Source: Eledone cirrhosa
Lineage: Eukaryota
Direction: 5' to 3'
DNA: 64,000 nucleotides
Assembly: GCA_964016885.1 (NCBI GenBank)
Contig: OZ024743.1
Span: 290,098,001 to 290,162,000, forward strand
The translations under genes and the position numbers were made by a program. Shown piece after piece: positions 1,746 to 42,960 of the stretch. The notes beneath the pieces were generated by a model. It was not told where the DNA came from. It worked only from the letters and a program-made list of their open reading frames with translations, and did no database searches. How positions within the stretch are numbered: position 1 is the first letter of the stretch; each line of letters starts with the position of its first letter.

Positions 1746-1807
1746 TTTTATTATATATATTTCAGAGGTACTGTGCTGTTTTTTCAGTACGCCCTCATCA
1801 GATAAAA
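1746..1807 (-). ncRNA. Minimal hammerhead ribozyme in PLE 3' pLTR
   Basis: Minus strand: ttttat-CTGATGA-stem II gtactg/cagtac-GAAA-tatata (palindromic)-TA-ataaaa. Confidence 0.75.
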
Positions 1808-3337
1808 TACTGACATTAATGTATGACATACCTCAACTGTGCTGATGTTTCAATTCCAGTCTTGGCAGTGATTTATTACAACAAAACTCAATATTTATAT
1901 ACCACAAGTAATAGTGTGACAAACTAAATATGATGGAGAGGGATACATAGCGGGATATAGGAGTGGGTGAGTAGGAAAAAGTATAGAAGAAATAAATAAA
2001 TAAACACGTAAGTATATAAATGTTAAATATTTAACTATTTGAATATGTAAATATCCGTGTTAGAGAAAAAGACAAAGGAGAGAGAGAGTGTGTGTGTTAA
2101 ATAGAAGAGCAAAGGGAAAAAGATAAAAACATAAAGATAAAAAGAAGGGAGTGGGAGATAGAGATGATAGAATATATAACTGCATAAGGAAAAGAGATAA
2201 AAAAGAAAGAAAGAAGAAAGTATGAGAGTATTTATCATAACTTAATTGCATATCACCATCTGTATATATGCATTTTATATAATGTTTAGAATTATAAATT
2301 TTATAAACAATGCTATTTAAATCAATAGTTGTCAATTACATATAGGATTAATTATTAGTTGTATTTATTCTTGAAAGTACTATTATTTCGATTCAACCAA
2401 ATCTTATTTTATTCAATACTATAGATCAAGTTAAATACAGATTATTAATAAATTTGGATAAAACGAAAATTATACACGATAAATGTAAACAAATGAGCTC
2501 CGTACAATATATCCAAACGTTTAAATTAACTAAAAGGTTTGAAAGCCTGAAAGTATTTCAGATCTCTCAAATTTAGAAAATTCAAGACATAAAATGAGGA
2601 CTCTAAAAACAAACTAAAGGTATTTAGTCAATCAAGAGATTAACTTGCTATATAAATGAACTGATATGCATTTCCTAAGGTGAGGTAAAACATTTTACAT
2701 AATACTAATAAAAACAAGAATTATTAATAAAAGTGAATATCTTTTTTCACTCAGTCAATGATTTTTCCTAAATGTATATGATGCTTGAAATATTTTTATA
2801 GATTTATGGAGGCAATTTGAAAATAACTCACTTTTTGTATTAATTAAATTACCATAATTAGCAATTATTAATAGATTCTCTAAATTGCAAATATTGCAGT
2901 TTGGTGAAATGGAATCGTTACGATAGGATTCAGAGTTTCTAAGCTTAACCCAAGAAATTGAGTATTTCATATTTTTCTCTTTTAAATACCATATTAATTG
3001 TGATAATGAAGTAGACATTTTTTTATCTGGATTAGAAAAAGAATGTTTATGATTGGAAAAGCGAAGTTTAAAGTTCGATGAAGTTGCACCGATGTAGTTA
3101 TAAGTAATATTATTATTTGTTTTAATGGTACATTTATATACTAAATTCTTATCAAGGCAGTTATTTCGTAAAGGGCATTCGGATTTCCTTCTACAGATAC
3201 AATTCAATTTCATGTTATTTCTATAATATAAACTGTACATATTATCATTGTTAGTATCAGGTGTTCTACAATATGTGTTTAAATTATTGTTATTGTTATT
3301 CTCAATAACTATTGTATTATTATTATTACTATTGTTA

Positions 3338-3396
3338 AAAGTACCAGTAATACACTGGTTCATTGCTGGCCTTGTGCCTAAAATAGAAACAATTAT
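3338..3396 (+). mobile_element. 3' fragment of the tRNA-derived SINE inserted in the PLE ORF
   Basis: aaagtaccagtaatacactgg...gctggccttgtgcctaaaatagaaacaatt matches the SINE 3' end at 8145-8203; lies in the AAT-rich linker and splits the ORF. Confidence 0.75.
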
Positions 3397-4008
3397 TACT
3401 ATTGTTATTATCGCTAATTATATGTTGGTTTGAATTAAGAATTCTGCTATTAATTTTTGCAATATTTTGAGCCATATTCATGGTTGTTGAGTACGAAAGT
3501 TTAACTGTGTGTCTATTGAAGATAGAGTAATATTTATGTGATCTAGGGAAACATTCATCCAAGGCTTTGAAAAATATATGTGGTAAAGGCGTTTTAATAG
3601 CTAAAGATGCTGGCGGGGCATACCAAATAATAGTTCTAGTTCCAATTTTTTTCACCGATTTATTCTCCAAATTGTTATTTTTATTTATATTTATATTTTT
3701 ATTTTTACAGTCAGTTTTATTTATATTATTCCTAATATTATGAATATTTTGTTTATAATTACTATTATTATTTTCTACATAGTCAATATTATATTTATAT
3801 CCTTTTTTATGTAACGCTTCATTGTAATATCCAACTTTACTATTAAAAATGGATTTGTTAGCAGCTACTCTGGTTATACGTTGTTGAACACTATTGACTA
3901 TTGCATTTTTAACACATTTAGGATGATTAGAATAAAAACTAACATAATTTAGGTCATATATTCATTGAATAATCAATGAACCTTGTTTAACATTTGGTTA
4001 ATTATATA

Positions 4009-11983: not shown

Positions 11984-12473
11984 AAACGGAAACAATGAAA
12001 CGAAATTTCATTTCCCACTCTTAGTACGGCTGTTACTTAAATATAAGTATAAGTATGTACACGTACATACATATATGTATACAGACATACAGTAGTATGT
12101 ATATATATATATATACATACATGCACACATATATATATATGTACGTATGGATTCACCGAACATTTATTATAATGCTCGGTGTGTTTGTAAACAAACATCC
12201 CGTATTAAGCCGTAGTGTCCAGCAACCATTGTTGCTCGTTTGTTCAACACATACAAAGGAACGCTGTACTAGTTTCAAGCTTATTAGCTATCGTCAGCAA
12301 CGTATACCTTCCTGCCAGAGTGTTGAACGTCTGAAAGTATATACTTTCCTTATGCATATTAACGGCTGAGTAGCCCAATTTGCATATCGAGTGGGTTAAT
12401 CGGCGCCGAGTGCACCGAAAACGATAAACGGAAAAAATGAAACGAAATTTCATTTCCCACTCTTAGTACGGCT

Positions 12474-12477
<4 letters not shown>
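11984..12477 (-). mobile_element. Retrozyme-like element, family beta (~440-bp monomer + ~50-bp redundancy) in (TA)n
   Basis: Terminal direct repeat aaacggaaa.aatgaaacgaaatttcatttcccactcttagtacggctgtt; intact HHR; homologues at 39340-40890. Confidence 0.85.
12261..12303 (-). ncRNA. Intact minimal hammerhead ribozyme
   Basis: acgttg-CTGACGA-tagc taataa gctt-GAAA-ctag-TA-cagcgt. Confidence 0.85.
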
Positions 12478-12558
<81 letters not shown>

Positions 12559-13225
12559 TATATAGTAATAATATTAAATTTGAAGACTAAAATCCCAAGA
12601 GGGCTCGATAAGGATAAATATATATCAAATATATAAGAACCGTAGAGCAATATATATATATATATATATATATACACTCACAGAAAAAAGAGTCAGGATC
12701 CGACAGCTGTTCTCCGGCCGTTTCGACAGCTAGATCCGGGCGCTGAGTACACTGCTGCGTTATGCTCCACCTGGTAACTTACCATAACTTCTTTGTCATA
12801 TATACATACATATATGTATATCTAAGTAGAAGGGATATTTAATTTGTTGGAAATTCAACAAATATAAATATTTATAACAGATTCAGAGCACTCGACAGTT
12901 TTTGGAATAAATATTCAATGATATTAAATAAATGGAAACCATATTTATAAAACCATATTTATTCTATTATATATATTTCAAGAGTATATATATATAACAT
13001 TAAAAATGCGAGGAAATGATCAAGAAAAATATACCTACTTTTTCTTCAAAGTCCTGACAGCATTTTTCCCGATTGACTTTGATGCAACCATGCACTATAG
13101 AAGTGCAACATCGCTGTGAGGCTATTAAGGCTTATCAAGAGACCCCTCAGTTAGTGGAATGTTTCATAACAAGTGAATAATTCCCGAGAGACGGGGGAGA
13201 AATTAACACGCGATTGAATGGTTAA

Positions 13226-20117: not shown

Positions 20118-20710
20118 TTATAAGAATGTGAATGAAATATATTCATGCACACATAAGTGTGCACTGATATATATCAAAACTTAAAACTGTGTGTATGAAT
20201 ATATTTCATTCACTTTCTTATAATGATTAAGACTTGACTTTATTCTCTGAATTCTATCTTGAGCTGCTTTTAGAGACAAGACATTTCCATATATATCTTT
20301 CTATACAGATCACGTTATATAGGAAAAAAAGTGTTTGAAATGTGCACCTGGTAAATATAATATAAAACGCATCTTTATAAGCTGTACAAAAATTGATGTT
20401 AACAATAGATGTTTAACAAAGCAGGCAATTTAACGAAAAAAAAAACAATTTAACCTAATAATAAATGTTTTGATATTCCAATACGGAGAAAGCAGCATTT
20501 GCTAAACTTCAATTTTTAACATCACTTTTTGTATATATAAAGTTCCTTTATATATATATATACTAGGTACTTTTATCATTTTCCACACACACACACATAT
20601 ATATATATATATGTATATATATATATCCATACATATGTGTATATATCCATACATGTGTATATATATATTTGTATATATATATTTGTATATATATATCTAT
20701 ATATATATAT

Positions 20711-21134
20711 ATGCAAACACCGGGGAGCTAACGCCCTCTGGTGTCCAGCAGAAGCAAGGGAGACAACCGTCTATGCATTTCAGGCTTAACTGGCCTTCGT
20801 CAGGACGGTCCCTCCCACCGCTTGCGACTACTGGACTAGAAGACAGGCGAGAATATATACTTTTCTCGTCTGTGTAAATGAGGTGATTAATCTCATTTGT
20901 ATATGAAGCTGCACAATTTGGCTCAACTTATAATAAAAAAGAAATAGGATTTCGCTTCTAGCATAGCTTCATACAATATGTATAAATATCTCGTATTTCC
21001 AAGGAAACACGGTTTTAGGAAGCCGAAGCTATGCAAACACCGGGGGGTTGACGCTCTCTGGTGATGTCCAGCAGAAGGAAGGGGGACAACCGTCTATTCA
21101 TTTCAGGCTTAACTGGCCTTCGTCAAGACGGTCC

Positions 21135-21137
<3 letters not shown>
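20711..21137 (-). mobile_element. Retrozyme-like element, family epsilon: ~320-bp monomer bounded by two hammerheads, in (TA)n
   Basis: ~105-bp terminal direct repeat containing the HHR (20766-20809 and 21089-21132); no ORF. Confidence 0.85.
20766..20809 (-). ncRNA. Intact minimal hammerhead ribozyme
   Basis: accgtc-CTGACGA-aggc/gcct-GAAA-tgca-TA-gacggt; all stems perfect. Confidence 0.9.
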
Positions 21138-21166
<29 letters not shown>

Positions 21167-22759
21167 ATGTATGTGTGTGTATGTGTGTATGTGTGTGTGT
21201 CTTTAATAGGCTGTCTAGAATTGATCAATAATAATTTGACGTTTGTAAAATATGTTCACATTTCAATAAATCTAATTAGTGTTTTCATATCACTATAAAT
21301 TTACAATTCCGTCATTGAGAAAGACAGTCATTAACATGTGTGCAAGGAACACTTCTCATAAGTCTACGTAGGTATAACAGAGAATGTGGGGGAAATAACT
21401 CGCTCTCAGTTACACCCACACTATACATGCACATGCACATATAGACACTCATAATCACATACATATATGATAACAGATCATATGTAAATTATATGTAAAT
21501 TACTACGTCAATTTCACAATAATACTAAGGATGAATATATATATCTATACATCAAGTACATATTTTTTTCTGGTTGATTGTATGATATACACGTCTTTTG
21601 ATGGTGGTCCAATTATCTAAGAAAATCGATTAAAGATGGTTATCATTCTTTTCAATTTACAAGGAAATTCGTCTTTTCTGGAATGTTTACATATATTTAT
21701 ACGCTTGGTTCAGTCCCGCTTACACATTCAATATTTTTTATGCAATGTGGCGTCTAACAATTTAAATTTTTTTAATGAAATATATCAATCAAGATAGATA
21801 GTGTCGGAGGTTTTCAACAGAAAAGTAATAAAATGTCAACCATTAGGAATTGTATACAAAAAAATAATCATATCAAGATAATCATAACATATATCTTTGA
21901 AAATGTGTCGCTGATATAAAGGCATTAATAACAAATTTAAAGGAAACTGAGTTTGTAGGGGGCACGGAACTGTCGGTATGCGATTTCCACTGAGATAAAA
22001 CATGATTTCTTTCTTATATACATCTCATCGATTTCTTTATTAAATGCATATAGAATGGAGAGTGCACCAGCTATTTTTAAAGTCAAAGTAGGTAAATTAG
22101 TTGACATATATAAACAATTACTTCATTAAAATTTCTAAATCCACATTTTGCATTCTCTTTGATTGTGCAAATAGCTGATGTTGCAAGTATACGATCAATC
22201 TGTCCATACAACGTGATTCGAAGCTAACGCGTTGTTACTGCTAATTGTGTTAGCGTTGAAAAATTGGAAAAAAAAATATCAAAAACACAACACAGCGGTC
22301 CAACACGGCTTTTTAAACATTTTCACTTGGATAGGTGTATCGTACCGCACACCCTAAAATTTAGTCTTATACAGGCAAAGGTTTGACTGCTCGCCTCTAT
22401 TATCTGAAGGCTTTATGGAATAAAACCATTCGTAATATAGTCATGATCTACTGGACGCAACTATGACAGCCTGAGTCATTCCTTTGGGTCCAAGCGAATA
22501 TGACAAATCAACAATTAACGCCATGTTCAGAAACATTCCTTGATTTCTAGTTACCTTGAAATCGATTTGATATTTGTACTAATTCTGATTTTCCCGAGCG
22601 GTGGATACACTGCTGATATATAAATATACACACTCATACACACATATACACACAACACAACACAACACAACACACACACACACACACACACGCACACACA
22701 CACATACACAAATATATATATATATCTATATATATATATGTACACACGCACATTTACTT

Positions 22760-23100
22760 AAGGCTTCTATCGAAGATTAATAATAATGTTCGATTCGCTT
22801 CTAAACAAACGGCCCAATTTGAAAATATGCCATGCCGGTGACCGATCGTCACCTGTTTGTTCAACTCTGGCTTCGAGGAACAATCAGACATATTTCTGGG
22901 TCATTACAATTCATCAGTACTACATGCCTCTGCCAGTCTGCTGAACAGTTGAAAATATGTAGTATTTTCTTAAGTACAAATCGGCTGAGTAGCCTCATTT
23001 GCATAGCAAGCGAGTTACGATTGAGCTTGCCGCATATTAAAAATAAAATTAGAATTTTATTTCTTGCCCTAGCACAGCTGATACAGAAATGTACATATAA

Positions 23101-23168
<68 letters not shown>

Positions 23169-23670
23169 GCACACACATATATACATATACATATGTACGT
23201 ATGGGTTTATATAGGACATTAATAATTGTTTCTACTATTGGCACAAGGCCAGCAAATACCCAGTACATTACTGGTACTTTATTTTATCGACCCCGTAAGG
23301 ATGAAAGGCAAAGTTAACCTCAGCGGGATTTGAACTGAGTCCGTAAAGGGACGTAACTGTGCTGCAAAGCATGGCCTCCGACCCTCTACCGATACTGCCA
23401 ATTCAATGATGTTCGATTCGTTTGTAAACAAACGGCTTGATTTGAAGCTGTACCATGCCGTGAAAATACGATACATTTTCAAATATTCAACAGACTGGCA
23501 GAAGTATACTGTCCTGATGAACGGTAATGACCCAGGAAGAAGTTGATTGTTCTTTAAAGCCAGTGTTGAACAAACGGTGACGATCGCTCACCAGCACAGC
23601 TTCAAATCGGGCCGTTTGCTTACAAACGAATCGGACATTAGCATTAATGTTCGATATAACCCATATGTAC
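22760..23670. mobile_element. Diverged family-beta relatives (22760-23090 minus; 23405-23670 partly inverted)
   Basis: Shared blocks taaacaaac, tttgttcaac, ctgccag, ggctgagtagcc..atttgcat; decayed CTGATGA...GAAA. Confidence 0.6.
23221..23402 (-). mobile_element. tRNA-derived SINE, full-length copy
   Basis: Reverse complement of 8021-8203, including the A and B boxes. Confidence 0.85.
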
Positions 23671-23715
23671 ATACGTATATGCGTCTGTATGTATATATAT
23701 ATATATATATATATA

Positions 23716-24113
23716 TTCAGGTTTGAGGTTCACCACTTTATAGAGCTGGTCTATTCCGTATGGTCAATCGTAATGCAATAATATAGAGAGTACTCAACGT
23801 AAAGCAGTTCAACCGTCTTTGTTTTTGTAGTTGGTGGTGCTATTACGGAGTTAAATATTATAATGAAATGACAGGAGGCTGGATTTGTGTAAATCCTTGA
23901 AAGGTTTATTATTCTATGATCATTTCAATGACCGGGTTCCGTATGAATCCGGTGATATTATCAGGTATTCGAAATATAATACGTGAATGTAATAGATAAA
24001 ATCCATGGGGCTGAAAATCGAGGACCCGAGGGCGACCGCTATTCTGTTCCTTCAACCTCAGTCGGTCGCCCTGGAGTGGATTTACACAAATCCAGCCTCC
24101 TGTCATTTCATTA

Positions 24114-30050: not shown

Positions 30051-30617
30051 TTATATATATGAATATATACATTTTTTAGTGTTTGCGTTAGTGTATCTTT
30101 GTGTGTGTTTGTTTCCAAGCTATATGCTGCCGTGTGTTTTTGTGAGTGTGTAATTGAATGGAAGTTACTAAGTAGTTTGAATAAGTGACTAAGTGATTAA
30201 GAATATAGTCATTAATTAGCTAGGCCCCTATCGATTATATTATGGAAAATGCTGTCACCGTATTCAGTTCCTGTGATATATATTTTTGAAATTGCGATGT
30301 TTCATAATGTTATGATATTTTCTATGTTTTTCCTAATTGGCAAGCTTCGGCCATGACTTCTCCTTCCAGGAACTGACTCTGGACAAATCTAGCAGTAGAT
30401 CATGGATGGAAGCTACATCACAGTCCAAGGATAATATAAAAGCCAATGCGATGATCCCAGTGTCGTAACAACGCATTATCTAACTGAATCGTAACAACGC
30501 ATTATCTAACTGAATCGTAGAATAGTAATCAAATAAGCAACCTTACCTTCTTGATCCTAGCACACTGAAAACTAGGCCACCCTATTAGAACCCTTTTCAA
30601 AATTTACTGACAATCGT

Positions 30618-33600
30618 GTGTTAAAATCGGTTCGGTTTTATGCAAAGTTCGGTTTTATGCAAAGGCTAAAAACTTTATGGCACTCCAAACACCCAGAATT
30701 AGACTTTTCTCCAAAGCATCTAAATGAACAGGCAAAACGTATCATTAGATGTAAATTGATACATCTAACGGAATCGAGTGATACTACAAATACAGCCCTT
30801 GTAGACAACCACCCCACCTCCACTGACAGACAAAGAGAATGGCCAGCTAAATCTAACAGTGAACAGCTCACCAACAATTTTGCTGAAATCCATCCCACTT
30901 CCACTGAAGAACAGCGAGAAAGGTCAGCTGACTCTAGTAGTAATTGTCACCACATCAACAACGAGGCTGCAATTCATGACTCTACTGAACAAACAGAGCA
31001 CCAAAAACTTGTGGGCACCCTACAAGTGATATGGAACGATATGTTTCAAGAGATTCACAGCCTTAATGTGAGTGACAGACCATACAACACTAGAGTCAGT
31101 AAAGAACCCACTAAATTGGAATTGGAAGCGGTGAACGAAATAGCTGGCAATTATCTGAAGGCTATACGATCTAAAGGTGTAGAAACGACATTTGAAACGC
31201 TCAATGTTTTGTTATATGTTTCAGCTGTCACATTGCTATCATATAACACACATCTAAAACCACGCAATCAAGATACAAACAGAAAGCCTGAACCAGCGTG
31301 GATGCGAAATTTAAAAACCAAAATTTTGTCCCTGAGACGAAGTATCTCACACATCGCAGTCGTTATGAAATGCAACATAGAGAGAAACTTCACACGACAC
31401 CAGGAAGACCTAAAGAAAAAGTTAGAGAGACGATTTGGAGATACGAAATTTAAAACTTTGAACTCCAAATTACACCAGTTGAAACAACAACTCACAGCTA
31501 CAACAGAAAGACTAAAATATAAGTCAACAGCCCATAAACGACAAGTGCTAAATAGATTGTTTGCCAGAGATCCTAAATCAGTTTATCGCAGCTTCAGTGG
31601 CAAAAGCTCAATCCCTGTAAACGACACCCCTTCAAAAGAACAGGTTGAGAACTACTGGAGATCTGTATGGGAAACGGATGACGGATTCAACAGACAAGCT
31701 AATTGGCTAAAACAACTGGAACAGGACTACTGCCAACATGTCCAGACAAAACAATATGACATAGATGGGTCAATACTGGAAACAGCTCTACAGAAAATGT
31801 CGAATAGGAAATCGCCAGGCCCAGACCTCATTACAGGATACTGGTTGAAGAATTTCACTTTCTATCGGCAAGATCTCATACGGCTGTTTACAGAAACCAT
31901 TAAGGGCACACAAGAACTGCCCAGAGGGTTATCAACTGCCACTACTCTCCTCATTCCCCAAAATAGCCAAACCACCCTTGCTAAAAATTACCGCCCAATT
32001 GCCTGCCAAAACATCATGTATAAATTATATACTGGGTGCCTTAACCTGTTCTTACAGGATCACTGTGCTACCAACAACATCATAACACATGAGCAAGCTG
32101 GTGGAAAGAGGGAGGTGTGGGGTTGCATAGATCACCTACTAACTAACAAAATGATTCAGGAAAAAACAACAAAGAATCGCAGAAACATGACTGTCGTGTG
32201 GCTGGACTATCAAAAAGCATTTGATAGTGTACCTCATGGGTGGATTATTAAGGCTTTACAGTTAGCTAAAGTCCCACAACCATTAGTAGCTGCTGTTGAA
32301 CGCCTGACCAAGAACTGGTACACCAATTTGATCCTTAGAGGTGAGAAGGAGCAGGTTAAGACTGATAGGATACATTACCAGAAGGGCATCTTTCAGGGTG
32401 ATAGCTTGTCAGTACTACTCTTCGTTCTCTCACTGAATCCATTATCTTACCTACTCAGGAAACAAGGTGGACAAAGAAGTGGGCCCAGAAGTATCTCCCA
32501 TCTTTTCTTTGTTGATGACCTGAAGTTGTATGGGCCAAATATCAATGACATCAAGAAACAATTGGACCTCATTACACAATTTTCAACCGACATCAAAATG
32601 AAATTTGGTGAGTCCAAGTGTGCATATTTGGCAGTAAAACGTGGAAGAGCTGTGCCCTCCTCTAGAAATCTAGATATGAACGGCCTGACAATACAACCTC
32701 TGCAGTCAGGTGACAACTACAGATATCTTGGACAGGATGAGAATGTCAGATATGATGGACCCATAAATAAGGAGAGAACCAGAACTGAATACCTCAGAAG
32801 AGTAAAAAAAATATGGTCATCAGAACTGTCAGCATACAACAAATACATTGCCCACAATACCTATGCTGTGCCAATTCTAACGCCAACATTTGGCCTACTG
32901 AACTGGTCATTGCAAGAACTAAGTGAGATGGATGTTAGAACTCGAAAACTTCTCAGTGTTACTGGGAATTTTAACATCAATGGTAATGTGGATAGGCTAT
33001 ACTTCTCACGCAAGGAAGGTGGCCGGGGTCTAAAATCAATATTAACAACATATGAGACCCGGATAGTAACACTGAAGCAACACCTTCAACAGAGGAAAAA
33101 GGTTGGCGACCATCTTGCTCAGGTTTATGAGCATGAAAAAAGAAATATCATTAGAATAGCGACTGATCTGGAGGAGAGATATGGAATAAAGCCTGATATA
33201 AATCTCTCACCCAGAGAAATCGGAAGATCCTATTCAATGTTCAAACAAGAAAAAAAAATTGACCAATTTACAGAGAAAGTTGTGCATGGATACTTGAGGC
33301 GTAAAACACAGACCATAGAGGGGATAAACCACTCAAAAAGCCTGGCATGGAGTTCCGACAAGTTTATGACATCACACCTTGAGGGATATCTCTATGCAAT
33401 ACAGGAACAAGAACTCCCTACCAAATATCTGCTGCACAAAAGAGGAGGGCCAGCAGCTGACAATAAATGTAGGCTATGTAAAACAAAGATCGAGGATGTA
33501 AGCCACATTGTTGCCAGCTGCGAAAGAATGTCATCTCGCTACTACCTCCCCATGAGACACGATGGGATAGCTAGAACTATCTATAACGCACTTCGGAAAA

Positions 33601-34040
33601 CAAAATTAACAACAAACGAGGAAGAATATATTGAGACAGATGGCACTAAGGAATACTGGTGGAACCTGAAAATAAAAACTGCCACCAAATTAAAGCACAA
33701 CCGGCCTGATATTGTAGTTTGGGATCACACATTGAAAACGTGTTCTGTTGTGGAGATCAGCTGCCCACTTGATGTAAACGTTGTCAGAAAAATACAGGAG
33801 AAGGAGGACATCTACGGACCATTGATGAGGAGCTTACAAATCCAGTATCCAAGATACACCTTTAGCTTCATACCCATCATTATTGGTGCTACGGGTTATA
33901 TACCAACCCGCTTGGACCAAAGTATGACCGAACTTGGATTTGCGGACAAAAAGCGCAGCTCCCTAATTCATAGTCTACAAATGGCTGCGATAGCTGACAC
34001 CTTCAAAATATGCAAAACATTCTTGCGATTCAAGGGTTGA
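30618..34040 (+). CDS. R4/Dong-clade non-LTR retrotransposon polyprotein (RT, CCHC finger, PD-(D/E)xK restriction-like endonuclease)
   Basis: KSPGPD, NYRPIAC, WLDYQKAFDSVPH, GIFQGDSLS, HLFFVDDLKLY, YRYLG, GGRGL; CRLC..HIVASC, RHD, RPDIVVW..VEISCP; open for 1140 aa; start codon doubtful (probably 5'-truncated). Confidence 0.93.
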   Translation: MLKSVRFYAKFGFMQRLKTLWHSKHPELDFSPKHLNEQAKRIIRCKLIHLTESSDTTNTALVDNHPTSTDRQREWPAKSNSEQLTNNFAEIHPTSTEEQRERSADSSSNCHHINNEAAIHDSTEQTEHQKLVGTLQVIWNDMFQEIHSLNVSDRPYNTRVSKEPTKLELEAVNEIAGNYLKAIRSKGVETTFETLNVLLYVSAVTLLSYNTHLKPRNQDTNRKPEPAWMRNLKTKILSLRRSISHIAVVMKCNIERNFTRHQEDLKKKLERRFGDTKFKTLNSKLHQLKQQLTATTERLKYKSTAHKRQVLNRLFARDPKSVYRSFSGKSSIPVNDTPSKEQVENYWRSVWETDDGFNRQANWLKQLEQDYCQHVQTKQYDIDGSILETALQKMSNRKSPGPDLITGYWLKNFTFYRQDLIRLFTETIKGTQELPRGLSTATTLLIPQNSQTTLAKNYRPIACQNIMYKLYTGCLNLFLQDHCATNNIITHEQAGGKREVWGCIDHLLTNKMIQEKTTKNRRNMTVVWLDYQKAFDSVPHGWIIKALQLAKVPQPLVAAVERLTKNWYTNLILRGEKEQVKTDRIHYQKGIFQGDSLSVLLFVLSLNPLSYLLRKQGGQRSGPRSISHLFFVDDLKLYGPNINDIKKQLDLITQFSTDIKMKFGESKCAYLAVKRGRAVPSSRNLDMNGLTIQPLQSGDNYRYLGQDENVRYDGPINKERTRTEYLRRVKKIWSSELSAYNKYIAHNTYAVPILTPTFGLLNWSLQELSEMDVRTRKLLSVTGNFNINGNVDRLYFSRKEGGRGLKSILTTYETRIVTLKQHLQQRKKVGDHLAQVYEHEKRNIIRIATDLEERYGIKPDINLSPREIGRSYSMFKQEKKIDQFTEKVVHGYLRRKTQTIEGINHSKSLAWSSDKFMTSHLEGYLYAIQEQELPTKYLLHKRGGPAADNKCRLCKTKIEDVSHIVASCERMSSRYYLPMRHDGIARTIYNALRKTKLTTNEEEYIETDGTKEYWWNLKIKTATKLKHNRPDIVVWDHTLKTCSVVEISCPLDVNVVRKIQEKEDIYGPLMRSLQIQYPRYTFSFIPIIIGATGYIPTRLDQSMTELGFADKKRSSLIHSLQMAAIADTFKICKTFLRFKG

Positions 34041-39339: not shown

Positions 39340-39881
39340 ATGCACGTGTACATACTTATATTTCAGTAACAACCGTACTAAGAGTGGGAAAGGAAATTTC
39401 GTTTCATTTTTTCCGTTTATCGTTTTCGGTGCACCGGGCCTATTAACCCACTCGATATGCAAATTGGGCTACTCAGCCGTTAATATGCATACGGTAAGTA
39501 TATACGTTCAACAATCTGGCAGGAAGGTATACGTTGCTGACGATAGCTAATAAGCTTAAAACTAGTACAGCGTTCCTTTGTCAGTGTTGAACAAACGAGC
39601 AACGATGGTTGCTAGACACTACGGCTTAATACGGGATGTTTGGTTACAAACACACCGAGCATTATAATAAATGTTCGGTGAATCCATACGTACATATATA
39701 TATATATATATATGTGCATGTATGTATATATATATACATACTACTGTACGTCTATATACATATATGTATGTACGTGTACATACTTATATATAACTAACAG
39801 CCGTCCTAAGAGTGGGAAATGAAATTTCCTTTCATTTTTCCGTATATGTATATATATATATATATATTCATGTGATGTATT

Positions 39882-39952
<71 letters not shown>

Positions 39953-40886
39953 GTAAATATGTATGTATGTATACGTACATACATATATGTATACAGACGC
40001 ACAATAGTATGTATATATATACATACATGCTCACATATATATATATATATGCACGTATCGGTTTACCGAACATTTATTATGATGCTCGGTTTGTTTGTTT
40101 GTAAACAAACAGCCTGAATTACGCCGTACAGTGTTTAGACAACCGCGTCACCCTTTTGTTCAAGACTGACACAGGAACTATGTACTAGTTTCAAGCTTAT
40201 TAGCTATCGTCAGCATCGTATACCTTCCTGCCAGATGGTTGAACGTCTGAAAGTATATACTTTCCTTATCCATATTAACTACTGTACGTCTGTATACATA
40301 TATGTAAGTACGTATACATACATACTTACATTTAAGTAACTGCGGTACTAAGAGTGAGAAATGAAATATCGTTTCATTCTATTCCATTTATCGTTTTCGG
40401 TGCGCCCAGCCGACTAAACTCACTCGAAATGCAAATTAGGCTGCTCAGCCGTTAATATGCATAAGGAAAGTATATACTTTCAGACGTTCAACCATCTGGC
40501 AGGAAGGTATACGATGCTGACGATAGCTAATAAGCTTGAAACTAGTACATCGTTCATGTGTCAGTGTTGAACAAAAAGGTGACGTGGTTGCCTAAACACT
40601 GTACGGCGTAATTCGGGCTCTTTCTTTGTTTACAAACAAACAAACCGAACATTATAATAAATGTTCGGTAAACCGATACGTGCATATATATATGTGTTGA
40701 TGTATCTATATATATAACTTTGAATAACTTTGAAATGTTTTGGCCAGTATTGGCCCAGGCCATGTCTAACTTAATAGCACCACCTGGTGTACGTATGTAT
40801 ATATGTATGTACGTATACATACATATTTACATGTAAGTAACTGCCGGACCAAGAGTGAGAAATGAAATTTCGTTTCATTCTATTCC

Positions 40887-40890
<4 letters not shown>
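39340..40890. mobile_element. Cluster of three family-beta elements (39340-39843 +, ~39960-40280 -, 40281-40890 +)
   Basis: Homology to 11984-12477; HHRs at 39531-39573 (GAAA mutated to AAAA), 40177-40219 (-) and 40511-40553 (+, intact); the + copies are terminally redundant. Confidence 0.85.
40511..40553 (+). ncRNA. Intact minimal hammerhead ribozyme
   Basis: acgatg-CTGACGA-tagc/gctt-GAAA-ctag-TA-catcgt; stem I covaries relative to 12261-12303. Confidence 0.88.
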
Positions 40891-40937
<47 letters not shown>

Positions 40938-40942
<5 letters not shown>

Positions 40943-42960
40943 AAGAAAAGATGAAATCAAAAATGAAACTGGATGCTTATTTAAAAATATATATATATAT
41001 TTATTTGGCTCCTTTACCGGTTTCGCAGTTCTTCTGCTTTTCAAAAGTAGAGCTGAGATAGAGGGTCTGTGGTTTTTCTCACATTTGGTTGGTCTTTGAA
41101 TGTTACTTGTTTTATATGGAAAAAAGTGGCTCGAAACGCCAGGTTTTTAGAGAAGTAATTTGATTGGTTGGTCAATAAGTATAATACATTTTGCGCCAGT
41201 TCGCGTTACAAAGTTTATTCAAACAGGTAGGGGGGGGACTTAGGTTGTTTTTTCCTATATGAGTGTTTGAATTTCTTTTTACTTTCAAAAAAGTGGCTCA
41301 CGAGGCTTTTTTTAATAAACGTAATTTGATTGGTTACCAATGCCAAATTACCTACCGCAAACCCACAACCAACTGTCAAAAAATGTGGTCGCTCTAATTG
41401 TGGAACCTGCACTCACCTCATTGGAGGCAACACGTATATATTTAAATCAGGACTACATTTTGCAGTAAAAATTCACTTCATTTTCTCATCAAAAAATCTA
41501 CTTTATGCCATTAAATGTAAAGGATGCAATGAAGATTATATAGGACAAACTAAACTCAGAAGCAGAATGACAGCTCATCGCCAACCATTACGAGATCCAA
41601 CCACGAGACAGATACCACTAAGTGCACATCTAGACATATGCGCAAGTAATAAGACACCCAAATTCCAAGTCTTCTCATTTTACATTTGCGCTGACAATAC
41701 AGCAGAACCAATCCGAATAAATAAGGAAAATATGTTTATTCAAAAATATAGACCAGCATTAAATATGGTTTAATATACATTATGTCAACACCATAACATG
41801 CTAACCATCCAAAGAGACACATACACACACACACACATAACACCTCCTACTTTAGAAAATAAAAACCCGAACTAAATAAACCTTAACATACGTTTACGCT
41901 GACAATACAACAGAAGAAATACGAATAAGTAAGGAAAATATGTTCATTCAAAAATATTCCTACTAACGGAATCATTTTCCTACACACATACACACACACA
42001 CGCACAATATATATATATTCTCTTCATCTTAACATGCTAACCATACTCCCAGACACACATAACACCCATATACACATATAACAACCCCCATCCCCACACA
42101 AACAACACCCTCCCCCATTTCTACTAATAGAATCACTTTCCTACACACATATATACACACACACAGAATATATATATATACTCTCCATCTTAACATACTC
42201 CCCCCCACACACACACACATAACACCCATATACACACACACAACACCCTCCCCCATTTCCACTAATAGAATCATCTTTCTATACACACACACACACATAC
42301 AAAGACACAAATAAACATACATATCTTTTCTTTCTTTATTTCAATAGAAAATCTGAATTCTGACCCCCCAGCGAACTAACCATATTCACTGAACCAGAAC
42401 AATTCCCCCATCCCATTTCTCTTGACCATTATCTTTCGCTTGTCATAACATTTTCTAAAAGGGCTACAAAATATATTTCCAAATACGGGCGCGAATTTAA
42501 TGAACACTTGTTCATTTATAAACAATCAAATTACGTTTATTAAAAAAAAGCCTTTGTGAGCCCCTTTTTTTAAAGTAAAAATAAATTCAAACACTCATAT
42601 AGGAAAATACAACCTGAGCCCCCTCCCCTTGTTTGAAGACCTTTGTAACGCGAACTGGCGCGAAATTTATTATACTTATTGACCAACCAATCAAATTACT
42701 TCTCTAAAAACCTGGCGTTTCGAGCCACTTTTTTCCATATAAAACAAGTAACATTCAAAGACCAACCAGATGTGAGAAAAACCACAGACCCACCATCTCA
42801 ACTCTACTTTTGAAAAGCAGAAGAACTGCGAAGCCGGTCTATTTTAAAAAAAAATAAGACTCCAGTTGCATTTTCGATTTCATCTTTTTTTCTTTATACT
42901 TTCACTCGTGTAGGACATCTCGGTTATTTTTCATTTTGTAAAAAGAACCTCACTTTCTAA
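40938..42960 (+). mobile_element. Penelope-like remnant (GIY-YIG) with ~390-bp inverted pLTRs
   Basis: ORF 41330-41773 KCGRSNCGTC...NLLYAIKCKGCNEDYIGQT..RMTAH...RINKENMFIQKYRPALN; arms 40938-41331 / 42523-42897; (TA)n flanks. Confidence 0.9.
41009..41050 (-). ncRNA. Minimal hammerhead with U3-A8 variant core
   Basis: ctactt-TTGAAAA-gcag/ctgc-GAAA-ccgg-TA-aaggag; same core in the second arm (42810-42816). Confidence 0.65.

What the first reader, a model, noticed from the sequence alone, without database searches (positions are those of the whole stretch)
11984..12477. Family beta: ~440-nt non-coding monomer with fixed 3' end and covarying hammerhead
Seen: four close copies (here and 39340-40890). 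Three end at essentially the same position (..gaaatttcgtttcatt...cc(g/a)t(tt)|atata) with variable 5' redundancy. Stem I is acgttg/cagcgt in two copies and acgatg/catcgt in another, a compensatory change. Inference: ribozyme function was selected during family amplification, and priming occurs at a defined site using AT microhomology.
Basis: partly seen in the sequence, partly recalled or inferred. Interest (0 to 1): 0.72.

Follow-up and report, generated by a model that had tools for sequence, protein, structure and literature searches.

The report
Penelope-mobilised hammerhead retrozyme, two start sites
This is one of more than ten thousand copies of a protein-free jumping repeat whose 420-440-base unit holds a predicted self-cutting RNA and a likely U6-type promoter; its insertions end at two fixed points, one on each side of back-to-back copies, which suggests that a Penelope-type enzyme pair copies one circular RNA from two start sites.

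Summary
The window has four close arms of a ~428-nt non-coding unit with a type I hammerhead; the 31-nt core occurs 10,046 times exactly in the genome. The end is not one site but two, 61 nt apart: A (66 of 150 arms) and B (59), both followed by (TA)n. Back-to-back insertions carry one A and one B (25 of 26 in-sample; 10 of 11 further ones). This is the known Penelope 'tail', and a young Neptune-type Penelope element in the genome follows the same rule. Both arms share alleles; arrays are identical-unit or ABAB repeats; no 5' end sits at the ribozyme cut. That fits rolling-circle copying of a circle. Each unit carries the PSE+TATA of the host's U6, U6atac and MRP genes. Covariation is real but amounts to about seven historical events. 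Microhomology priming is compatible with the junctions but not shown. No expression was seen or tested. Class: metazoan non-LTR retrozyme (known). This scan already noted retrozymes with promoters and Penelope ends on other DNA of this genome.

The parts
11985..12477 (-). Copy 1: one unit (442 nt here) plus 52 nt of 5' redundancy, ending at site A
12374..12386 (-). PSE-like box TATGCAAATTGGG, matching the box at -77 to -79 of the host's U6, U6atac and RNase MRP genes
12334..12343 (-). TATA box, 43 nt after the PSE start; predicted Pol III start at 12313 (C|AGGAAGG)
   Evidence: start site inferred from the -30 spacing of host genes
12261..12303 (-). Type I hammerhead: stem I ACGUUG/CAGCGU, CUGACGA, stem II AGC/GCU with loop UAAUAA, GAAA, two-pair stem III with palindromic CUAG, GUA triplet; predicted cut between 12267 and 12266
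   Evidence: cleavage not assayed
12242..12328 (-). Extended stem I rod (GUUCAACA..CUGGC..AAGG paired with CCUU..GUGUUGAAC); its outer half lies upstream of the predicted start, so it can form only in a multimer or circle
11985..12045 (-). 61-nt tail between start site B (12046|12045) and start site A (11985|11984); holds a hairpin (11988-12016) and a T-run
12427..12477 (-). 5' redundant partial tail, read through site A into the unit
39340..39843 (+). Copy 2, ends at A; hammerhead 39531-39573 with G12>A; subfamily with an 8-nt deletion after the TATA box
39954..40279 (-). Left (inverted) arm of the bipartite insertion, ends at site B; hammerhead with stem I mismatch
40278..40892 (+). Right arm of the bipartite insertion, ends at site A; hammerhead 40511-40553 (acgatg/catcgt); about 70-90 foreign bases near 40716-40790
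22714..23716 (-). Decayed copy of an older sister family (about 70% identical) with the same PSE, hammerhead fold and site B
40936..42958 (+). 5'-truncated Neptune-type Penelope element in the same bipartite layout (ends B' at 40936, A' at 42958, tail about 63 nt); candidate source of RT/EN

Best explanation
This is a non-coding, high-copy retrozyme whose ~428-nt unit is likely transcribed from an internal U6-type promoter, is predicted to self-cleave and circularise, and is likely copied into (TA)n tracts by the reverse transcriptase and GIY-YIG nuclease of a Penelope-like element starting at two fixed internal sites. Steps: (1) Inferred: a tandem locus is transcribed from PSE+TATA, starting about 47 nt before the first cut site, and some transcripts read through the T-run. 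(2) Inferred: two hammerheads cut out a monomer (sometimes a dimer), held end to end by the extended stem I and ligated. (3) Shown in DNA, enzyme inferred: both ends of a break in (TA)n prime cDNA, one at site A and one at site B, on the same template sequence. (4) Shown in DNA: copying passes the cut site and the promoter, runs from a fraction of a unit to ten units, and stops at variable places; the two cDNAs are joined 5' to 5' (bipartite insertion) or one arm is joined to the flank. Because copying goes round past the promoter, an upstream-type promoter that a linear SINE would lose is regenerated.
For: Copy number 10,046 and 16,861 exact 31/30-mers. 3' ends: A 66, B 59, other 25 of 150 arms; 5 of the 59 B calls are alignment splits at expanded internal (TA)n. 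(TA)4 follows 111 of 125 A/B ends against 7 of 25 other ends. Inverted insertions: 25 AB, 1 BB (a split arm that goes on to A), 0 AA among the 26 of 40 with both ends classed, binomial p 4e-7; 10 of 11 in further loci. The Neptune-type PLE with intact 775-aa RT+GIY-YIG frames has two ends 63 nt apart, (TA)n flanks, and A'/B' pairing in 8 of 9 two-arm loci. Arms of one insertion differ at 29 of 526 polymorphic sites against 43.7% for random arms. 48 of 68 arms cross the cut site and none ends within 3 nt of it; 43 go beyond the predicted start. In L271 seven full units on both arms differ by at most one base, in L270 by 0-3; L269 and L098 alternate ABAB (lag 2: mostly 0-2 differences, lag 1: about 11-15). 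PSE+TATA stand before 5 of 8 host U6/U6atac/MRP loci examined; the 3 without are U6atac hits in simple repeats. A PSE-like box lies upstream of 66 of 87 beta hammerheads, 2 of 4 hammerheads of two other short-period families, 0 of 53 other hammerheads, and 17 of 2000 random windows. The sister family keeps PSE, TATA, the 30-nt spacing to C|A and the fold. Circular monomers fold at -117 to -136 kcal/mol against -87 to -92 for shuffles, with the hammerhead left free (3 of 14 monomers folded).
Against: No transcript was seen, so promoter use, cleavage and circles are untested. PSE-TATA spacing is 43-44 nt against 46-49 in host genes. The main subfamily has T6 just before site A, and host Pol III genes end at T5-T10, so most Pol III transcripts should stop before one unit is complete. 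The unit has no sequence match to the PLE loci examined, so the partner is assigned by behaviour only; many PLE families exist. Identical or ABAB arrays could also arise by local duplication and gene conversion, and some arrays hold unlike units (L149, L272, L273). One insertion carries most of the tail on both arms (L278). (TA)4 lies at the 5' junction of only 10 of 28 single arms, and no clear target duplication was found in the sample.
Confidence: 0.72

Rival explanations
1. Same element and PLE enzymes, but the template is an uncleaved linear multimer read from long tandem source loci (by Pol III read-through or Pol II from outside); the hammerhead only processes surplus RNA and circles are not the template.
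For: The anole PLE used unprocessed RNA and did not need its hammerhead in vitro (PMC11167929). A heterogeneous array of at least 18 kb exists (L272, L273) and some insertions hold unlike adjacent units. Absence of 5' ends at the cut site fits this too.
Against: Young insertions with seven identical units over both arms (L271, L270) and exact ABAB arrays (L269, L098) are what repeated copying of a monomer or dimer circle gives. A purely linear cycle would shorten arrays each round. The rod that joins the monomer's two ends is conserved.
Confidence: 0.2
2. The inverted arm arises by fold-back self-priming of the first cDNA, and the A/B difference is made by nuclease resolution of the intermediate rather than by a second start on RNA.
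For: Proposed for PLEs (PMC3846280, PMC8557442). Some centres are palindromic (L038, L269, L270). It explains shared alleles. 17 of 25 AB pairs have arm lengths that allow it.
Against: 8 of 25 AB pairs have arm lengths that fold-back cannot give in either order. The anole RT starts at both tail ends on RNA in vitro.
Confidence: 0.15
3. A satellite or DNA-level repeat spread by recombination or Helitron-type copying, in which the hammerhead and promoter are relics.
For: Long tandem arrays and duplicated insertions exist (L272, L273, L280).
Against: Dispersed copies with fixed 3' ends, variable 5' truncation, inverted 5' partners and the same A/B rule as a coding PLE; covariation of an RNA fold.
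Confidence: 0.04

Closest known systems
Metazoan non-LTR retrozymes (coral, mussel, axolotl; PMC7229834, parts 2-4 of 6 read; vertebrate survey 10.64898/2026.07.22.740005, parts 1-3 of 5 read)
   Same: Non-coding unit of 150-450 bp, low GC, one type I hammerhead per unit, monomers to multimers, thousands of copies, PLE proposed as mobiliser, rolling-circle copying proposed.
   Different: The parts read give no promoter, no fixed ends and no junction evidence. The survey derives retrozymes from PLE pLTRs; here no sequence match to the PLE loci examined was found, and the unit carries a U6-type promoter that the other hammerheads scanned lack. Circles are shown there, not here.
Penelope-like elements with pLTR, inverted 5' copy and tail (PMC8557442 and PMC3846280, passages; PMC11167929, parts 1-2 of 4)
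   Same: Partial tandems, inverted 5'-truncated partner, tail present at one end, AT-rich or (TA)n targets, two internal RT start sites that bound the tail.
   Different: No ORF; tail 61 nt rather than 30-40; the one-tail-per-insertion rule is counted here (35 of 37) with allele sharing; in the anole work no difference in start site between the two strands was seen and the start site was not homologous to the target.
Newt satellite 2 and schistosome Sm-alpha hammerhead repeats (known only from citations in PMC2220036 and PMC6765202; the original papers were not held)
   Same: Hammerhead repeat with a promoter inside the unit, so that each unit drives the next.
   Different: Newt: snRNA promoter read by Pol II. 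Schistosome: SINE-like Pol III promoter. Here the boxes match the host's upstream-type Pol III genes (U6, U6atac, MRP) and not its U2 genes.

Membership tests
Type I hammerhead ribozyme | CUGANGA and GAAA core, NUH triplet, three helices with open stem I | tested here: met
   Rfam models gave no hit at gathering score
Type I hammerhead ribozyme | Covariation of helices | tested here: met
   7 of 28 pairs change on both sides, 93.5% of cells paired against 26-41% when slid; few independent events; pair count not above shuffles
Type I hammerhead ribozyme | Self-cleavage | not testable with these tools
   needs an in vitro assay
Non-LTR retrozyme | Non-coding tandem unit of a few hundred bases with one type I hammerhead each | tested here: met
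   units 420-433 nt; arrays; the only frames of 120 aa or more that touch the copies are low-complexity (TA)n frames over copy 2
Non-LTR retrozyme | No LTR/PBS/PPT layout; low GC; dispersed high copy | tested here: met
   variable 5' redundancy instead of LTRs; 10,046 cores; PBS/PPT not searched for specifically
Non-LTR retrozyme | Expressed as linear and circular monomer RNA | not testable with these tools
   no RNA run was available for this stretch
Non-autonomous Penelope-like element | Partial tandem, inverted 5' copy, optional tail, microsatellite target | tested here: met
Non-autonomous Penelope-like element | Sequence shared with the pLTR or 3' end of an autonomous PLE | tested here: inconclusive
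   no match in 45 loci of two PLE families other than separate beta insertions; other PLE families not examined
Type 3 (U6-like) Pol III promoter | PSE near -78 and TATA near -30 as in host U6, U6atac, MRP | tested here: met
   spacing 43-44 against 46-49
Type 3 (U6-like) Pol III promoter | Transcription by Pol III from the predicted start | not testable with these tools
   needs 5' RACE or reporter

The most novel reading that the evidence does not exclude
The Penelope tail is the spacing between the two active sites of an RT/EN dimer on one circular RNA: each end of a break in (TA)n primes one subunit, one at A and one at B, and both roll round the same circle. This family is then a self-promoting circular-RNA parasite that keeps an upstream-type U6 promoter only because it is copied by rolling circle, and is not derived from a pLTR.
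Probability: 0.35. Interest if true: 0.78.

Novelty: new variant of a known kind. Interest (0 to 1): 0.5.

Why it matters
How animal retrozymes are transcribed and inserted, and what makes the Penelope tail and inverted ends, are open points in the papers read. This family supplies thousands of young insertions in which the rule 'one arm with tail, one without, same alleles' can be counted, a named promoter to mutate, and a young coding PLE with the same behaviour to test in vitro. The class itself is known, and the main features were already noted on other DNA of this genome by this scan.

Tried and rejected
Rfam scan of the window: no hit. Expression: no RNA holder listed; four contig runs laid gave no start, end or strand information; no evidence either way. 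RNA-editing scar (lead from e1-8803865): A>G 77 against T>C 59, p 0.07; among changes shared by both arms A>G is 11 of 27 against 14 of 215 one-arm changes, but 5 of the 11 come from one locus: inconclusive. Pile-up of 5' ends at the cut site: none; at the predicted start: 3 of 46, not distinct. Target duplications: none convincing in 28 single and 26 paired insertions. Isolated hammerhead or tail folds are not better than shuffles (z +0.2 to -1.8). U2 upstream regions lack the motif. No pLTR match in two PLE families; no canonical hammerhead found in the Neptune-type element. Cremisi 1992, Coats 1994 and Ferbeyre 1998 were not held. Literature searches listed no paper on cephalopod retrozymes or on a U6-type promoter in one; the library lacks most subscription papers and Repbase, and supplements were not read.

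Full report
Observation. On the minus strand, 11985-12477 is one 442-nt unit plus 52 redundant bases, flanked by (TA)n. Three more arms lie at 39340-40892, 88-95% identical around the hammerhead. Three arms end at ..TTCC(G/A)T(T)|TATA; the fourth ends 61 nt earlier. The window lies in a 3.0-Gb animal assembly; that it is a cephalopod is my guess and the wording of earlier notes, not tested.

Family. The 31-nt hammerhead core occurs 10,046 times and a 30-mer of the 3' region 16,861 times, controls 0. I took the first listed hits on contig C1 in order (120 loci), built a 428-nt consensus from 14 natural cut-to-cut monomers (420-433 nt) and mapped 192 segments, 150 after removing duplicates. Numbering: +1 is the base after the predicted cut. 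Median identity to consensus is 91%.

Ribozyme. The motif is a type I hammerhead with a UAU/U internal loop in stem I, loop II UAAUAA, a two-pair stem III around palindromic CUAG and a GUA triplet. An older sister family (137 exact hits of a 24-mer; 30 loci read) has stem I ACAGUC/GAUUGU, stem II GGG/CCC, loop UAAUGA and palindrome CAUG. On 25 aligned copies 7 of 28 pairs change on both sides and 93.5% of cells pair, against 26-41% for slid controls; the count of such pairs is not above shuffles (162 of 500), and the signal is essentially one family split. The helix continues outward for 13 pairs, joining the two ends of a cut monomer.

Ends. 66 arms end at +260 to +274 (A), 59 at +203 to +218 (B), 25 elsewhere; these windows cover 31 of 428 positions. 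Five B calls are splits at expanded internal (TA)n; 50 of 59 show the CATACT-type junction. Genome-wide there are 3,953 exact A junctions and 4,934 read-throughs. (TA)4 follows 111 of 125 A/B ends. Of 40 back-to-back insertions, 26 have both ends classed: 25 AB, 1 BB (a split arm that continues to A), no AA. In 20 further stretches, 10 of 11 distinct pairs are AB; L278 has most of the tail on both arms; these loci were picked from A-site hit lists, so one arm was preselected. Two internal RT starts bounding the tail are known for the anole PLE (PMC11167929), and a tail at one end only is described in PMC8557442 and PMC3846280.

Microhomology. Both sites are followed by TAT in the unit. In the subfamily with CTTACATTTAAG the B junction moves among TA/AT steps within about 8 nt. 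A fixed nick phase gives the same pattern, and 4 of 59 junctions have extra Ts. Not shown.

Template. The two arms differ at 29 of 526 polymorphic sites against 43.7% for random arms (26 pairs with overlap of 60 sites or more). Fold-back cannot give 8 of 25 AB pairs. Of 68 arms anchored near the 3' end, 48 cross the cut site and none stops within 3 nt of it, so the cut linear monomer is not the template. L271 and L270 hold seven near-identical units across both arms; L269 and L098 alternate two unit types; L149, L272 and L273 hold unlike units. The first two patterns fit rolling-circle copying of monomer and dimer circles; local duplication and conversion are not excluded.

Promoter. Three U6 loci, one U6atac and the MRP gene share TATG(C/G)(A/T)AAT(T/G)AG at -77 to -79 and TATA near -30; U2 loci and three U6atac hits in simple repeats do not. 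The unit has the box at +309 and TATATA 43 nt on, which puts the start at C|AGGAAGG, 10 nt before stem I. The sister family keeps both boxes and the 30-nt spacing. A matrix from the five genes scores 11 or more upstream of 66 of 87 beta hammerheads, 2 of 4 from two other short-period families, 0 of 53 others and 17 of 2000 random windows. Against: the spacing is 3-6 nt short, and T6 before site A should terminate Pol III, as host genes end at T5-T10; the older subfamily lacks that run. Promoters inside hammerhead repeats are reported for newt (Pol II snRNA type) and schistosome (Pol III) (passages in PMC2220036 and PMC6765202).

Partner. Next to the cluster, 40936-42958 is a truncated PLE of a young family with many 775-aa RT+GIY-YIG frames; its CX4CxxC linker fits the motif that PMC8557442 ties to Neptune. 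Its two ends are 63 nt apart, (TA)n-flanked, and paired A'/B' in 8 of 9 two-arm loci, the ninth having a tail cut midway. It shares no detected sequence with the unit, so it is a candidate only.

Verdict. A real, abundant non-LTR retrozyme with the insertion signature of PLEs. The class and the tail are known; the U6-type promoter, the counted A/B rule with shared alleles and the identical or alternating arrays were not found in the papers searched. Earlier notes of this scan describe the same kind of element, promoter and ends on other DNA of this genome; they were read after my own tests of those points and are not counted as support. A word search for the alternating-array and paired-arm points found no note. 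Supplements were not read and may bear on novelty.

Noticed in passing
window 20690-21140 (-): Another hammerhead family (about 320-nt period) with the same PSE-like box, AAAG-TATATA 44 nt on, and a tail resembling that of the sister family.
   Followed up: partly
L223:6560-8001: A 465-nt tandem hammerhead family with the same layout (AT palindrome, tail hairpin, T-run, PSE-like box), itself in a back-to-back insertion.
   Followed up: partly
window 39210, 39867, 42970: TTCATGTGATGT preceded by (TA)n occurs three times, flanking copy 2 and the PLE: looks like long target duplications from nicks in two neighbouring TA tracts.
   Followed up: partly
L174, L175 (1500 onward): U6atac copies without promoter sit directly after (TA)n, as if retroposed into the same targets.
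   Followed up: no
window 1750-1810 (-), 2755-3961 (-); L204-L216: A decayed PLE family with its own hammerhead (TATTTTAT-CTGATGAGG) downstream of the frame and no U6-type box.
   Followed up: partly
window 30576-34040 (+): An open 1154-aa frame of a non-LTR retrotransposon (RVT_1, zf-RVT).
   Followed up: no
L272, L273 (G000:C1:51772396-51790800): A heterogeneous array of at least 18 kb of the unit, partly with a four-unit higher-order period; possible source locus.
   Followed up: partly
L108: Both arms share 12 private changes, five of them A>G.
   Followed up: partly
window 12560-12650 and flanks of L003, L028, L038, L055: The same unrelated repeat end (..AAATTTGAAGACTAAAATCC..) lies beside many insertions, so (TA)n tracts at other elements' ends seem to be reused as targets.
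   Followed up: no
L223, L225: The young Neptune-type element has an upstream frame starting about 30 nt after its A' end and no canonical hammerhead by my scan.
   Followed up: partly
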